DNA of 64,000 bases from Anolis carolinensis (taxonomy: Eukaryota): assembly GCF_035594765.1 (NCBI RefSeq), contig NC_085842.1:20994782-21058781 (forward strand), given 5' to 3'. Positions within the stretch are counted from its first letter, which is position 1. Each line of letters begins with the position of its first letter. The position numbers were made by a program. This document shows positions 27,701 through 33,700 of this stretch, in pieces.

Positions 27701-30700
27701 GGCTGTCGATGAAGCTCTTCCCGCATTCCAGGCATTTATATGGCTTCTCCCCATTGTGGGTTCTTTGATGCGAAGTCAGGTTCCCTTTTCCACTGAAGTT
27801 CTTTCCACATTGCATGCATTTATACGGCTTTTCCCCAGTGTGAAATCTGAGGTGTTTACTAAAGTTTCCGCTGTTGATGAAGCTCTTTCCACATTCATGG
27901 CACTTATATGGCTTCTCCCCTGTGTGTGTTCTCCGATGCACAGTAAGGTTCCCGCTTATCCTGAAGCTTTTCCCACAGTCCAAACATTGATATGGTTTCT
28001 CCCCTGTATGCATCCTTTGATGTGTAATAAGATATCCTTTCGAAGAGAAACTCCTTCCACATTCTATGCAATGGTACGGTTTTTCCCCTGTATGGATCCT
28101 CTGATGTACAGTTAGATTTCCACTCTCGTTGAAGCTCTTCCCACATTCTGCGCATTTATAAGGTCTCTCCCCTGTGTGGGTTCTTTGATGGACGCGAAAA
28201 CTTCCACGGTTACTGAAGCTCTTTCCACACTGCATGCACTGATATAGTGCCTCCTCTGTGTGGATTTTTTCATGTTTACTTAATGCTAATTGATATTTGT
28301 ATATTTTCCCACACACCTGACACTTTCTAATCCTCCTCTTTTTGTGATTAATTGAAACCCCAAGTTCATAAACATCCAAACATTTTGAGTCAGGGGATTT
28401 CCCTGTCTTCTGTGCTTTGTTTCCTTTATACCTCTTTGGTCCCATTTCAGTCTGTAAGGTCTGTTTTCTCACTCCATGCTTCCCTGCATTTGATGACACC
28501 ATAGAATTCCCATTGTCTTTGCCATCACCTGCAAGGGAGGAGCAGAAACAAAACATCCCGATGTTAAATAAGGCCGTTGGATTTCACCCACTGGGAGACC
28601 AAAACGTACAAGAATGAGGGTGAAAGTAAATATATGATTTTATAAATCACTTCTATAATTTAATTAACTGAAAAGGAAGGGCTCCTTTTTCTCTCTCTGA
28701 AAGCAGACAAATCTACTTGGAACTGGGAAATTAAGAAGAGGAAATGATACCTATGTGGATGAAGCCCTTCTCAAGTTATGAGAAAAATAGCCCATTATAA
28801 ATAAAAAGAAAGCGTGATGCTCTTTTCAGTAAACCCTTTCTTAGGATTAGAGAAGATGGCACTTGACATAGTACAGGCAGTCTCCAGGTTACGAACAAGT
28901 TCGGTTGGTTTGTTCTTAAGTTGAATTTGTGTAAAAGTCAGAACATGTACATTTCTTAAGTGTAACTCCAGCCACCTTTTTAAATGTTTTGGAAAGCACA
29001 AGGAAGGGTTAACATCCCTGTGACATTTGTTTTGCTGTCTTTGCCCCTGTTCAAAACATTCCACCTCAGTTTCTGTTGGATTTTGAATATTTCGGGTTGT
29101 TGCGGAAACAAGGAACGGTGATAGTTTCAGTGGATACACCTTTTCCCCATGATAACCCTTACAGGAGTAAATTTCCCTTCTTAGGGGTAGATTTCCTGTT
29201 GTCTCAAGGACAGAAGGTGAGATTAAGTCTTTCTAATGAGGATACAAACAGCAAGAAAAACCGCACAGTGGCTCTACCCCCACACCATACTAACACATCC
29301 CCCATAAAATTTGCATGGAGTTCTACTTTAAATACAACTTGGACAGATGTTTGCCTTAACATAATATTTATTTATTACCTGTGCATGTAAATACTTAGAC
29401 ATTTTCAAATATGATACAGTACAACCTTAAACTATCTTGGTAGAGAATGGGACTCATATTACAGAGTCAGAGTCAGAGTCTGCTGCCGGAGTCTGTATAT
29501 TGCAGGGGGCTTGAAAGAGGGCTTGCACACAGCTTTTCTTTTTCTCGGCATAAATAGCTTTGTAGCATTTCAGGCTGTCAGTAACCGCACAGTAAGCTTT
29601 GGCAAACCTCGCTGCATCAGGGTCTTGCTCCTCTAACTTTGCCATTCCTGCTTCAATGAGACAAAAAGCATCAGCTAATTTTTTGGTAGAAAACTTTTTC
29701 AATGTTGAAGTTTCTAGGTACGGGGTTTCTTCCGCAAATGGTATCATCTGCTGCTCTAGGTCCATAAGGTTTACTTCATTGGTTCGTTCTTTGCCCGGGG
29801 AGTCGAGCAACTCTATGATATCATCTTCACTGATGCCCAGCTGCAATTCATTGCCAATTGCAACCACAGCTTGCCTGGTTTCGGCAATTTCATCATCTAT
29901 ACTCTCAAGAAATCCTTGTTTGAATTGGGGGCACAATTTCTCCCAAGCTCCTTTCATGGTTGTCTCTTTCACTTCATCCCAAGCACCAGCAATATTTTTG
30001 ATGGCATCATGAATGCTATAGTTCTTCCACAACTCCTTTAAAGTCATCTCACCCTTTTGGGCAGCTCTGACAGCCTGGGAGAATGCCCTCTGTAAATAAT
30101 GGGCCTTAAAGGAGGCTATGATACCCTGATCCACTGGCTGCAGGAGTGATGTGGTATTGGCGGGTAGAAATGCCACCTTTACATTGGGATGAACGTCGCC
30201 TGAAATGTTTCGATGTCCTGGGGAATGATGGTCAAGGAGAAGGAGAATTTTGAAAGGAATGCTTTTGCCCAAGCAATAAAGTTCAACAGCAGGGACAAAA
30301 TGGTCTAAAAACCATTCTTGAAAGACCGCAGCAGTAACCCCAGCCTTTGGATTTGCCCTCCAAATAACAGGAAGAGATGTCTTAGTGACATTCAGAAGCG
30401 CCCTCGGATTTAGAGAGTGATGCACTACCAAAGGCTTGAGCTTTAAATCTCCAGATGCATTACTCCCAAGTAATAACGTTAGCCTGTCCTTTGATGCCTG
30501 ATGACCCGGTGCACTGTTTTCCTCTTTCAAAATGTAGATCCTCTCAAGCATTTTTTTCCACAACAAGCCAGTTTCAGCTACATTAAAAATTTGGTCTGGC
30601 AAATAACCTCCATCCTTAATAACATCTTCCAATATCTTGGTGAAACCACTTGCAGCATTTACATCAACACTCGCTGCTTCGCCTTGAACTTTAATATACT

Positions 30701-33700
30701 GCAAATTTGCTCTTTCTTTAAAGCGACAGAACCAACCCCTGCTTGCAGCAAATTCTTCATTGCAATTGCCTACACATGCTGTTCGAGCAGCTTTTAACTC
30801 ATTGAAAAGGCTTCGAGCCTTTTCTTGCACTAAAGGAAGACTGATAGGCAGATTACGCTGATTTTGGACTTCTATCCAAACTGTCAACAGCCTTTCCATC
30901 TCGATAATTAAACCACTGCGCTGCTTGGTAATAATCGTAGCATTCATTGGGGCATGGCTTTTCACATGCTCCATTATTCTAGCTTTGTCTTTTAAAATGG
31001 TTGCAATCGTTGAACGACTGTAACCAAATGCTTTGCCAATGGATGACGGAGTTTCGCCTCTCTCTGCTCTCTTTATTATTTCTACTTTATGTCCCATGGT
31101 GATGGTTTTTCTTTTCTTGGCTGGAGTACCAGCAGTTCCATCAGATTTGTATTTCGGAGGCATTGTTGCAGGGTGAAAACAACAAGTGCGGCAGCGTTAC
31201 AATTACTGGAACACTATGCAGTACACTTTGGATGTGGTCTGGTGCCCGTTCGTAAGTACGAGTCGCACGCAAGTCGGATGTTCGTAACTCAGGGACTGCC
31301 TGTGCTAGGCCAGTGCTAACAATTTCCACCTGCAGAGAAATAGAAAATTGTCTTTGGCTAGCATCCTGTTAAGTACATACATAACTGTAAGTCCACATTG
31401 CACTTACATACAGTATGTCTCCCCCAACTCCCTTGGTCATTGAGGACTTTGACATCTCTTTCCTTCCTCCTTCTGCAAAGTCTAAAGCAAAGTCTAAAGC
31501 TCCAGGACTGTTGGTTGCACTGTGGTAGCCCTTCCCAGAATGGCTAATCTGTTGCTCATGGAAGAGATCAGAGAAGCGTCTGGCTGTTTCCCCTTCCCAG
31601 ACGCAAACTGATGACTCCATCCAGGAAGATTTGTTGAGGGCACTGGTGGATCTCAGTGGAATATAGCCTCTATTTCTCACCCCCCCTACTCTCCTAGGTC
31701 CTCCACGGCAACTTTAAGGGAACTTCTGGTGGAAGCGTATCATTTCAATGCCTAGAGGAGGTATAGCATTCTTAGAAAGTATGTATTTTGTTGACTTTGG
31801 GTAGATGAAAATGCAACCATCTGCAGGGACAGGGATTGTACTGCATAGCAATCATTATGATATCAGGGAAAGGTATGACTAGGATAACAGGATGGGAAAC
31901 AGAGCAATGAAAGTCATGGTCCCACTCTATTCTGCTTTGGTCAGAACTCATTTGGAATAACTCTGTGTCCAGTTCTGGACGCTACCATTCAAGAAGAATA
32001 TGGACAAGCTGAAAGTGTCCAAAGAAGGGTGATCAAAATGACCAAAAGTCTAGAAACCATGAATCTTCACAAGGAGTGGCTTAGGGAGTTGGGGCTGTTT
32101 GCCTTGGAGAAGAGAAGATTAAAAAGGGGCACGAAAGCCAACTCAGCTAGGGAGCTCTAGTGCCTTTCCAAACTACAAATCCAAAGATTCCACAGGATAA
32201 TGCCATGGCAGTTAAAGTGGAATCATGACACTACAGTTCTGTAGTGTGAAAATGGCCAAGGCCCAGTCCTAGCCACTCATCTCCAGAGCATTCTTCCTAC
32301 AGTACAGTGCTAACTTATTAATTGTAAGTATTCATTATAACTTATTTTTCCCTTCTCTCCAAATTCATTTTTTTAAATTTATGCCAGCAGTTCTTAATCT
32401 ATAGTCCATGGACCCCCAGGCACCTACAATACTATGAGCTTATTATTATTTTAAATTAGTACTAAATCATTCCAATAAAAATATTATCTCAGGACTGTGT
32501 ACATTTGCTTATTTTCCCCTTCTCTTTGAATTTGAAGCTTCATGATGAACAATTGAAATACACATTTGATGTGCTTTGGGGTTTTAAATCTTGAGTAAAG
32601 CCTTGATAGTCCAAAGGCATATTTAAAGGGTGTCCACAGCGGAGAAAAGGTTAAGAACTGCTAAATAAGACTACGATTCCTATTGTTCCATAGAACTGTG
32701 CCACGGCAGTCAAAGTGGTGTCAAGTTGCATTAATTCTACAATGCAAATGTATCCTCAGATCCCTTTGGTGCCTATTGATTAAGGAAAGAATGTTCTCAC
32801 CCAGAGGTGTCATACTGCCACAGTTCTTCATCATGACTCCTTATGGAAAGCCCTTTACGACCCAGGGGATTCCAATCTTCTTGGGTGAAATACAAAGTCA
32901 CCTCTTCAAAGACTCCTGAAAGGAAAAATAATATATATTATTTATTTATTTCTAATTTTGGACATGCTTAAAATTTTATATAAAGTGATTTTATTTTTTA
33001 ATGGTACCCGTTTTTATATGAATTGTTGTTTTGTACATTGTCTTATATGAATTGCTGTTTTTGTACATTGTTTTAAGGCATTGCATTTTTGCCTATTTAT
33101 TGTAAGCCGCCCTGAGTCCCCTCGGGGAGAAAGGCGGGGTAAAAATGATGTAAATAAATAAATATTTTGTGTCAAAAGCATTGCATAATTTATTTCGCGT
33201 CAAAAGCATTGCATAATAAATTTAAAAGTGATGAAATAGATAAACAAGTATAAAACTGATAAACTAGAGGGAACATAAGCTAAATAATTTTAGACCAAAA
33301 AAGGTCAACAGCTACCACATTGTCTGTAACTGTGCATGAGGCAGGACATTGTGGGGGAGCATACAGATGCTGAGCTGATTGTTCTGCTCCACAATTGCAC
33401 AAGGTGGAAGATTCCTCTAGGTTGTCTTGTGATCTGCCCACTCTGCTTCTGAGTCTCTTCAGGGACTTCTAAGTTGCGCATTCTTGGTTTGCCCCTGGAG
33501 GAAATCCATTTGGGATTTTCTGGTTTAGCTGCCCAGAGGGATACACTTGTTGTTGATGGAGGAAGATTAAGAGGAAGAGTAGTAGCTTTTTGTCTCTGGC
33601 AAGTTCATTTCAGTAAAGGAAGGAACTTTTGGGGCTGATGGGCAGACAATACGATACACCAGCATAATGGAAAGAAAAATAATGGCTGTTTTCCCACATT

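What the first reader, a model, noticed from the sequence alone, without database searches (positions are those of the whole stretch)
29454..31163. Intact Tigger ORF with a mutated catalytic triad: signature of domestication
Seen: 1710 nt with no stop or frameshift, while the TIRs differ at 4 of 24 positions, one TSD is altered and related MITEs are clearly decayed. The first catalytic Asp is replaced (FNVDET becomes FNVAET; codon GCT at 30576-30578). The second Asp context is altered (LDHHSPGH versus the usual DNAPGH, with 33 residues to the third Asp versus about 32 in Tiggers). The N-terminal basic NLS-like stretch and HTH domains look preserved. Established: CENP-B, JRK and TIGD genes are pogo-derived DNA-binding proteins, often with degenerate triads. 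Inference: a lineage-specific TIGD-like gene kept for DNA binding rather than transposition.
Basis: partly seen in the sequence, partly recalled or inferred. Interest (0 to 1): 0.75.

Follow-up and report, generated by a model that had tools for sequence, protein, structure and literature searches.

The report
Dead Tigger transposase kept in anoles
A jumping-gene enzyme in the green anole lizard has lost a key catalytic residue yet has stayed intact and well conserved in a second anole species, so the host probably now keeps it as a DNA-binding protein, which is a familiar route of gene birth.

Summary
Window 29454-31163 (minus strand) is an uninterrupted 569-codon Tigger/pogo transposase ORF. 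It lies inside a 2429-bp element (28874-31302) with 24-nt TIRs that differ at 4 positions and TA/TG flanks. The first catalytic Asp is Ala196 (GCT, 30576-30578). Asp311 and Asp345 remain, with one extra residue (His312) after Asp311.

The window is Anolis carolinensis: a neighbouring gene's exons match an A. carolinensis protein at about 99-100%. An annotated Anolis sagrei protein (568 aa, 91% identical) has the same Asp-to-Ala change and the same His insertion. The change is therefore real and older than the split of the two sequences.

The 52 differences between the two proteins avoid family-conserved sites, are conservative and include no stop. The protein is more conserved than the neighbouring host SCAN-zinc-finger gene (83%). 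Neutral simulations with published anole rates give 69-83% identity and at most a 0.4% chance of no stop.

Best reading (0.65): an anole-lineage TIGD-like gene kept for a non-catalytic, probably DNA-binding, role.

Not testable here: genome copy number, synteny, codon-based dN/dS and expression.

It is a new member of a well-known kind and of moderate interest.

The parts
28874..31302 (-). Full-length Tigger/pogo-type element (2429 bp), from TIR to TIR
   Evidence: Inverted repeat I1; end strings; blastn of the element against the window finds only itself at full length
31279..31302 (-). 5' terminal inverted repeat (24 nt)
   Evidence: 20 of 24 positions match the 3' TIR
28874..28897 (+). 3' terminal inverted repeat (24 nt)
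28872..28873 (.). Flanking TA (target-site duplication, intact copy)
31303..31304 (.). Flanking TG on the + strand (target-site duplication copy with one base changed)
31164..31278 (-). 5' leader. Together with the TIR (139 bp) it holds 9 CpG, observed/expected 1.02, against 0.21-0.28 in the flanks and the 3' non-coding part
29454..31163 (-). Intact ORF, 569 aa plus stop (TGA at 29454-29456)
31104..31124 (-). Basic NLS-like stretch PAKKRKT (residues 14-20)
   Evidence: Translation; K16 and R18 invariant and K17 nearly invariant in alignment A1
30972..31118 (-). CENP-B_N helix-turn-helix domain (residues 16-64)
   Evidence: Pfam E 6.8e-09; family profile matches the CENP-B DNA-binding domain 1hlv, E 1.5e-09; Foldseek hit to 1hlv
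30699..30902 (-). HTH_Tnp_Tc5 DNA-binding domain (residues 88-155)
   Evidence: Pfam E 2.6e-11
30576..30578 (-). Codon GCT = Ala196, in place of the first catalytic Asp (FNVDET becomes FNVAET). In the model it sits in strand beta-1 (192-201)
29943..30491 (-). DDE_1 (RNase H-like) domain, residues 225-407, matching the full length of the profile
   Evidence: Pfam E 1.1e-41; the model's best PDB matches are Mos1, SETMAR and Sleeping Beauty catalytic domains
30231..30233 (-). Asp311, second catalytic Asp, retained, at the end of a beta strand (306-311)
30228..30230 (-). His312, a one-residue insertion shared only with the A. sagrei protein. N313H, A314S and P318R follow
   Evidence: gap in 35 of 35 outgroups
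30129..30131 (-). Asp345, third catalytic Asp, retained, at the start of a helix (344-369)
29371..29376 (-). AATAAA polyadenylation-like signal, 77 nt after the stop
42745..42915 (+). Decayed fragment of a related non-autonomous element (TA + TIR-like end + 3'-region homology)
26289..26497 (-). Older fragment related to the element's 3' non-coding region (67% over 223 nt)
26865..28556 (-). Context: a 15-finger C2H2 zinc-finger exon, same strand. Its reading frame ends about 290 bp downstream of the element's 3' end. No SCAN or KRAB exon was found upstream of it

Best explanation
This is an old Tigger (pogo superfamily) insertion in the Anolis carolinensis genome. Its transposase gene lost the first catalytic aspartate (D196A) and gained an insertion beside the second aspartate. 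Both changes happened before the A. carolinensis and A. sagrei lineages separated. Since then the ORF has been held open and has changed slowly, while the element's ends and 3' non-coding part decayed at about the neutral rate. The most likely reading is a lineage-restricted, TIGD-like domesticated gene. It would encode a nuclear protein that still binds DNA through its CENP-B-type helix-turn-helix domains and keeps the RNase H-like domain as a non-catalytic scaffold. Shown: the anatomy, the shared inactivating changes, and the signs of purifying selection. Inferred: orthology of the two proteins, host-level (rather than element-level) selection, DNA binding as the retained activity, and the target sites (possibly the ends of related MITEs).
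For: (1) The ORF is intact, with full domain architecture. The AlphaFold model (mean pLDDT 75) places residue 196 in beta-1, D311 at the end of a strand and D345 at the start of a helix. That is the canonical DDE geometry (geometry recalled). The best PDB matches are Mos1, CENP-B DNA-binding domain with DNA, SETMAR and Sleeping Beauty.
(2) The only hit above 79% among the 120 listed is an A. sagrei protein: 568 aa, 91% identical. It shares FNVAET, the His312 insertion and 87 other derived residues. Frog, turtle and monitor relatives have FNVDET and DNAPGH. The pair forms a 100/100 clade with a stem of 0.20 and tips of 0.057 and 0.038.
(3) The window is A. carolinensis.
(4) The neighbouring host gene is 82.9% identical to its A. 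sagrei counterpart, against 90.8% (516 of 568) for this ORF.
(5) Tests that do not depend on time. Post-split changes sit at less conserved sites (Mann-Whitney p 0.0015). Mean BLOSUM62 is 0.135 against a null of -0.26 to -0.40 (P 0.01-0.045). For 52 missense changes, 2.7-3.3 nonsense changes are expected and none is seen (P 0.04-0.07).
(6) With anole 4D rates of 1.13-2.2e-9 per year (PMC9635203, passages) and 38.5 My, neutral simulation gives 69-83% identity. The chance of no stop is at most 0.004, and the maximum identity in 3000 runs is 88%. Even at 7.7e-10 the joint probability is 0.0003.
(7) The 4 TIR mismatches match the 2.1-4.1 expected for neutral decay over that time. CpG observed/expected in the 3' non-coding part (0.28) has fallen to the flank level (0.21-0.23).
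(8) Constraint has shifted toward the DNA-binding domain.
(9) Novick et al. (PMC3014272, passages) found no autonomous Tigger family in A. carolinensis, which argues against a high copy number.
Against: Orthology and synteny of the A. sagrei protein were not shown, because no eukaryotic DNA collection was available. Genome copy number is unknown. No A. sagrei DNA was available, so dN/dS is indirect: about 0.27-0.52 with anole rates and 0.59-0.77 with a slower squamate rate. That is weaker constraint than the 0.055-0.207 reported for established pogo-derived genes (PMC7386202, Table 1 text). The TIRs and one TA are still recognisable, so the element is not structurally immobilised. Only two species are known, and Gao et al. 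would have excluded such a narrow clade. The contrast between DNA-binding domain and catalytic domain for post-split changes is not significant (5/138 against 16/214, p 0.17). The stem contrast loses significance at the stricter threshold (0/28 against 8/79, p 0.11). The 38.5 My figure for this species pair is my inference from the range given in PMC9635203, whose figure I did not see. Geneva et al. say less than 50 My. No expression data could be consulted.
Confidence: 0.65

Rival explanations
1. It is a neutral, decaying Tigger copy whose ORF has stayed open by chance. The A. sagrei protein would be another such survivor picked out by gene prediction.
For: TIRs and a TA flank are still present. 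The element lies in non-coding DNA of a zinc-finger cluster. Both sequences were ascertained because they are intact. TIGD1-like sequences are usually multi-copy and pseudogene-like (PMC7386202, passages).
Against: Conditional on 52 amino-acid differences, the changes avoid conserved sites (p 0.0015), are conservative (P 0.01-0.045) and include no stop (P 0.04-0.07). Only one in-frame gap separates the two proteins. Neutral simulations over the species split never reach the observed identity with anole rates. Only one cluster above 79% identity was listed.
Confidence: 0.07
2. It is a catalytically dead but still mobilisable family. Copies would be moved in trans by an active relative, or passed between anole lineages by horizontal transfer. 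The two proteins would then be younger than the species split and need not be orthologous.
For: In the tree the anole pair nests among frog and turtle copies, a patchy pattern that suggests horizontal transfer of the family. TIRs are retained. Related MITE-like fragments lie in the window. Novick et al. describe frequent invasions of the anole genome by Tc1/mariner-type elements.
Against: The time-independent tests still show constraint on the protein, which trans-mobilised dead copies would not experience. TIR decay and CpG loss in the 3' non-coding part fit an old insertion. No further copy or coding fragment lies in the 64-kb window. No autonomous Tigger is reported in A. carolinensis.
Confidence: 0.12
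3. It is still a working transposase with an unorthodox active site, for example with the neighbouring Glu197 taking over metal binding. It would then be conserved by selection at the level of the element.
For: Glu197, Asp311 and Asp345 are retained. TIRs and a TA flank are present. The RNase H-like fold is predicted with confidence around residues 181-200 and 231-310.
Against: Asp is present at this column in 30 of 35 relatives, and the exceptions look like dead copies. There are four further lineage-specific changes right after the second Asp. Eleven stem changes fall at conserved catalytic-domain sites. No sign of recent amplification was seen. That the first Asp of DDE/DDD enzymes is essential is established knowledge, recalled and not tested here.
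Confidence: 0.06
4. The ORF is one exon of a chimeric host-transposase gene, spliced to the zinc-finger exon about 870 bp downstream of its stop codon or to SCAN exons of the cluster.
For: The downstream 15-finger exon is on the same strand and has a phase-1 acceptor. It has no SCAN or KRAB exon of its own between 28.6 and 49.7 kb. One phase-1 donor-like site (AGG|GTGAGA) lies at codon 371. Other squamate gene models fuse Tigger parts to KRAB, ZNF or SCAN domains. The A. sagrei protein is called 'isoform X2', so another isoform exists.
Against: An in-frame stop lies 11 codons upstream of the ATG, with no AG in between. The A. sagrei protein starts and ends as this ORF does. No fused protein of high identity was found in the 312-996 aa range or among the representatives. 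A donor matching 7 of 9 consensus positions is expected by chance.
Confidence: 0.05

Closest known systems
TIGD2, TIGD5, TIGD7, JRK, JRKL and CENPBD1 (Tigger-derived domesticated genes of vertebrates; Gao et al. 2020, PMC7386202)
   Same: The whole transposase gene is retained with CENP-B_N, HTH_Tnp_Tc5 and DDE_1 domains. The catalytic triad is partly degenerate. There is evidence of purifying selection.
   Different: This is an independent, much narrower event, known here in two Anolis species only. The first Asp is lost, whereas the published triads vary only at the third position where they are scored (DD34S, DD34D/N, DD34N, DD32G, DD32D/E; TIGD5 is not scored). TIRs are still recognisable. 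The apparent constraint is weaker: about 0.3-0.5 (up to 0.77), indirect, against 0.055-0.207.
Mammalian TIGD1 and 'TIGD1-like' annotations
   Same: It carries the same database name through its A. sagrei relative, and it is of the same Tigger family type. It is 43% identical to human TIGD1.
   Different: It is not an orthologue. In the tree it lies in a different, frog/turtle-associated clade. Gao et al. treat TIGD1 and TIGD1-like sequences as multi-copy and pseudogene-like, whereas this one shows constraint.
CENP-B
   Same: The N-terminal DNA-binding domain is homologous to the solved CENP-B domain (1hlv). Both are pogo-derived proteins that bind DNA without transposing.
   Different: CENP-B derives from the pogoR family and has a C-terminal dimerisation domain and an unrecognisable triad. 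No centromere role is implied here.
SETMAR / Metnase
   Same: A domesticated Tc1/mariner-type transposase that keeps binding the TIRs of its dispersed parent MITEs (recalled). Its transposase domain is among the structural matches.
   Different: SETMAR is fused to a SET domain and keeps partial nuclease activity. Here there is no fusion, and the first Asp is lost.
Host-transposase fusion genes such as KRABINER (Cosby et al., bioRxiv 10.1101/2020.05.07.082677, passages)
   Same: A transposase lies inside a KRAB/SCAN zinc-finger gene neighbourhood, the context from which such fusions arise.
   Different: No fusion is supported here. The ORF has its own start and stop, and there is a stop 11 codons upstream.

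Membership tests
Tigger family, pogo superfamily transposase (by descent) | CENP-B_N plus HTH_Tnp_Tc5 DNA-binding domains followed by a DDE_1 domain | tested here: met
   Pfam E 6.8e-09, 2.6e-11 and 1.1e-41, all above the curated cut-offs
Tigger family, pogo superfamily transposase (by descent) | Spacing between the 2nd and 3rd acidic residue within DD29-36D | tested here: met
   33 residues between D311 and D345; the range is from PMC7386202
Tigger family, pogo superfamily transposase (by descent) | Short TIRs flanked by a TA target-site duplication | tested here: met
   24-nt TIRs matching at 20 of 24 positions; TA on one side and TG on the other
Active (autonomous) Tigger transposon | Complete D-D-D catalytic triad | tested here: not met
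   Ala196 in place of the first Asp. The column is Asp in 30 of 35 relatives. The residue lies in beta-1 of the model
Active (autonomous) Tigger transposon | Several near-identical copies in the genome | not testable with these tools
   No eukaryotic genome collection was available. No second copy lies in the 64-kb window. Only one protein cluster above 79% identity was listed
Domesticated pogo-derived gene (criteria of Gao et al. 2020) | High protein identity between species (70% or more) | tested here: met
   516 of 568 residues (90.8%) between A. carolinensis and A. sagrei
Domesticated pogo-derived gene (criteria of Gao et al. 2020) | Ka/Ks significantly below 1 | tested here: inconclusive
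   No A. sagrei DNA was available. The indirect dN of 0.0455 against literature dS gives 0.27-0.77. Protein-level tests favour constraint
Domesticated pogo-derived gene (criteria of Gao et al. 2020) | Continuous distribution in at least five species | tested here: inconclusive
   Only two Anolis species were seen. No other squamate protein above 79% identity was among the 120 listed. Other anole genomes could not be searched
Domesticated pogo-derived gene (criteria of Gao et al. 2020) | Three or fewer copies per genome, at a stationary (syntenic) locus | not testable with these tools
   This needs whole-genome searches of both anoles
TIGD1 orthologous group (mammals) | Groups with mammalian TIGD1 in a tree | tested here: not met
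   It is 43% identical to human TIGD1. Human TIGD1 falls in a separate, well-supported clade
Host-transposase fusion gene | Transposase domain joined in frame to a host domain | tested here: not met
   A stop lies 11 codons upstream of the ATG. The A. sagrei protein has the same ends. No fused close relative was found

The most novel reading that the evidence does not exclude
The dead transposase may be a sequence-specific transcription or chromatin factor. Its binding sites would be the terminal repeats of the related Tigger-type MITEs scattered through the anole genome. The burst of non-autonomous elements would then have wired a lineage-specific regulatory network, with the 139-bp CpG-rich 5' end of the old element serving as the gene's own unmethylated promoter. 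A bolder variant is that it also splices from codon 371 into the orphan 15-finger exom downstream, giving a Tigger-zinc-finger hybrid.
Probability: 0.2. Interest if true: 0.6.

Novelty: new member of a known kind. Interest (0 to 1): 0.45.

Why it matters
Domestication of pogo/Tigger transposases is well documented in mammals (CENP-B, JRK, TIGD2-7). It is barely charted in squamates, and systematic screens discard clades found in fewer than five species. If this is a young (tens of millions of years) anole-restricted case, it catches the process at an informative stage. The TIRs are still readable and the first catalytic Asp is already gone. The residues next to the second Asp are remodelled, the DNA-binding domain is untouched, and related MITEs are still present as candidate binding sites. 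With about a dozen anole genomes available, the timing, the strength of selection and the targets could all be measured directly. It does not change current understanding of how such genes arise.

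Tried and rejected
It stays unknown whether the second member of that 90% cluster is the A. carolinensis protein or isoform X1.
- Search with the adjacent zinc-finger exon: saturated by finger repeats (8000 of 8000 candidates matched). The best identity was 59%, so it gave no orthologue and no species information. tblastn of the Anolis hits from that search against the window also gave only 40-63%.
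- Representative search: 15145 hits, none above 80% identity among the 150 listed. The 80% hit (P0411, 194 aa) resembles the turtle copy and lacks the anole-specific residues.
- Splice-donor scan for a Tigger-to-zinc-finger fusion: one phase-compatible site matching 7 of 9 consensus positions. I treat it as chance.
- Search for SCAN or KRAB exons that would place the element inside an intron: none between 28.6 and 49.7 kb, so an intronic location is not shown. A 190-N gap at 39631-39820 was left untouched.
- TIR pattern search: only the 5' TIR itself matches within 3 mismatches.
- Not run: complex prediction, the protein-atlas search and Rfam, because no claim needed them.
- The neighbouring genes are spliced.
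- Supplements of Gao et al. (Tables S1, S2) and of Cosby et al. were not seen. They may list anole Tigger copies or anole fusion genes.
- Literature searches turned up no description of an anole Tigger-derived gene.

Full report
**What is there.** Window 29454-31163 on the minus strand is one open frame of 569 codons plus a stop. Pfam finds the full pogo/Tigger transposase architecture: CENP-B_N (residues 16-64), HTH_Tnp_Tc5 (88-155) and a full-length DDE_1 match (225-407, E 1.1e-41). The frame lies in a 2429-bp element, 28874-31302. Its 24-nt terminal inverted repeats differ at 4 positions. It is flanked by TA on one side and TG on the other. An AATAAA lies 77 nt after the stop. The motif FNVDET of relatives reads FNVAET, and Ala196 is GCT at 30576-30578. 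Asp311 and Asp345 are present, 33 residues apart. An extra His312 plus N313H, A314S and P318R follow the second Asp.

**Is residue 196 the catalytic position?** In 35 outgroup Tigger proteins the column is Asp in 30, and the columns of D311 and D345 are Asp in 33 and 28. An AlphaFold2 model built on 47 sequences has mean pLDDT 75. It puts 196 in the first strand of the core (192-201), D311 at the end of strand 306-311 and D345 at the start of helix 344-369. That is the standard DDE layout (layout recalled). The best PDB matches are Mos1 transposase (E 5.8e-06), the CENP-B DNA-binding domain on DNA (1hlv), and the SETMAR and Sleeping Beauty catalytic domains. A family profile also matches 1hlv by sequence (E 1.5e-09).

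**Whose genome is it?** The SCAN exon at 56.6-57.4 kb is 100% identical to 'zinc finger protein with KRAB and SCAN domains 8 isoform X1 [Anolis carolinensis]'. All three exons of that protein map to the window: 57362-56634, 53626-53486 and 50694-49774. The window is therefore A. carolinensis and not human. It holds a minus-strand cluster of SCAN/KRAB zinc-finger genes. These neighbours are spliced. I searched single exons only and left out any joined model.

**The key relative.** Of 652 matching proteins, 120 were listed, and only one exceeds 79% identity. It is 'tigger transposable element-derived protein 1-like isoform X2 [Anolis sagrei ordinatus]', 568 aa and 91% identical. It carries the same FNVAET, the same His312 insertion and 87 further residues that differ from the consensus of the closest relatives. 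The next relatives (frogs, a softshell turtle, a monitor lizard; 61-79%) mostly keep FNVDET (two Pyxicephalus copies do not) and keep DNAPGH or DNALGH. The two anole proteins form a 100/100 clade with a stem of 0.20 and tips of 0.057 and 0.038. The Asp-to-Ala change is therefore not a sequencing error and predates the split of the two sequences. Barring horizontal transfer, that split is at least as old as the species split. Geneva et al. put the species split at under 50 My (PMC9596491, passages). I infer about 38.5 My from the range in Kanamori et al. (PMC9635203, passages; the figure was not seen).

**Selection.** No A. sagrei DNA was obtainable, so I used protein-level and simulation tests.
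- Of 550 comparable columns, 50 differ between the two anoles. These sit at less conserved family positions (mean conservation 0.57 against 0.68; Mann-Whitney p 0.0015).
- The 52 replacements are more conservative than random missense changes of this ORF. Mean BLOSUM62 is 0.135 against a null of -0.26 to -0.40 (P 0.01-0.045 across five mutation models).
- For 52 missense changes, 2.7-3.3 nonsense changes are expected and none occurs (P 0.04-0.07). There is one in-frame gap.
- The neighbouring host gene is 82.9% identical to its A. sagrei counterpart, against 90.8% for this ORF.
- With anole fourfold-site rates of 1.13-2.2e-9 per year, neutral evolution over 38.5 My gives 69-83% identity. The chance of no stop is at most 0.004, and the best of 3000 runs reached 88%.
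- At a slower squamate rate (7.7e-10, cited in PMC13554808, passages), the joint probability of the observed identity with no stop is 0.0003.
- A crude dN of 0.0455 gives dN/dS of 0.27-0.52 with anole rates and 0.59-0.77 with the slow rate. This is weaker constraint than the 0.055-0.207 of established pogo-derived genes (PMC7386202, Table 1 text).

**Neutral parts look old.** The 4 TIR mismatches equal the 2.1-4.1 expected over that time. CpG observed/expected is 0.28 in the 3' non-coding part and 0.21-0.23 in the flanks. It is 0.42 in the ORF, 0.37 in the neighbouring coding exon, and 1.02 in the 139-bp 5' end.

**Where constraint lies.** Post-split changes hit 5 of 138 DNA-binding-domain sites against 45 of 412 elsewhere (p 0.0095). 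The contrast with the catalytic domain alone (16 of 214) is not significant (p 0.17). On the shared stem, changes at sites that are at least 85% conserved number 0 of 38 in the DNA-binding domain against 11 of 106 in the catalytic domain (p 0.038). At the 90% threshold the counts are 0 of 28 against 8 of 79 (p 0.11).

**Copy number.** This could not be measured. The window holds no second copy and no other coding fragment. It holds only two decayed non-autonomous relatives. Novick et al. found no autonomous Tigger family in A. carolinensis (PMC3014272, passages).

**Verdict.** The most likely reading (0.65) is an anole-restricted, TIGD-like domesticated transposase that retains DNA binding and has lost catalysis. 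It is a new member of a known kind. The rivals are chance survival, a trans-mobilised or horizontally moved dead family, an unorthodox active enzyme, and a fusion with the downstream zinc-finger exon. Each is weighed in its own section. No paper describing this gene turned up in searches.

Noticed in passing
window 26865-28556 (minus): A 563-aa open exon with 15 C2H2 fingers and a phase-1 acceptor near 28531. No SCAN or KRAB exon lies upstream of it within 21 kb. The gene at 10.3-17.3 kb, by contrast, has SCAN (16.7-17.2 kb), KRAB (12.8-12.9 kb) and ZNF (10.3-12.3 kb) exons. It may be an orphan or a differently built gene. The Tigger element ends about 290 bp upstream of its reading frame.
   Followed up: partly
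window 28850-28873 and 31303-31326: The element sits at the central TA of a near-palindromic target. The 10 nt outside each TIR match each other as an inverted repeat at 7 of 10 positions. This may reflect a target preference or an insertion into a small hairpin repeat.
   Followed up: no
window 31164-31302: The 139-bp 5' end of the element keeps 9 CpG (observed/expected 1.02), while the flanks and the 3' non-coding part are at 0.21-0.28. This would fit a small germline-unmethylated promoter, but the sample is small.
   Followed up: partly
proteins P0244, P0245; P0070, P0072, P0008: Snake gene models combine SCAN, zinc fingers and Tigger DNA-binding domains without DDE_1. Lizard models combine KRAB and/or ZNF, or RING, with a whole Tigger transposase. 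Tigger-host fusions therefore seem recurrent in squamate annotations.
   Followed up: no
tree: The closest relatives of the anole pair are frog and softshell-turtle copies (70-79% identity), mixed without regard to host phylogeny. This suggests horizontal transfer of the Tigger lineage among amphibians and reptiles.
   Followed up: no
protein P0109: The protein named 'Gavialis gangeticus TIGD1' lies 0.09 substitutions per site from human TIGD1. I did not pursue it.
   Followed up: no
window 42600-43200: The MITE-like fragment at 42745-42915 is embedded in a long CTGCC-rich low-complexity repeat, preceded by a TCTA microsatellite.
   Followed up: no
window 59764-60819 (plus) and 4592-4846 (plus): An ORF with a weak zf-RVT match, probably a LINE remnant, and a plus-strand SCAN-like pseudo-exon among the minus-strand genes.
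   Followed up: no
residues 464-467 of the ORF (window about 29763-29774): Four consecutive residues differ between the two anole proteins (VNLM against EAFT), and both have one residue more than their relatives. This could reflect a compensated frameshift in one lineage. It cannot be checked without A. sagrei DNA.
   Followed up: no
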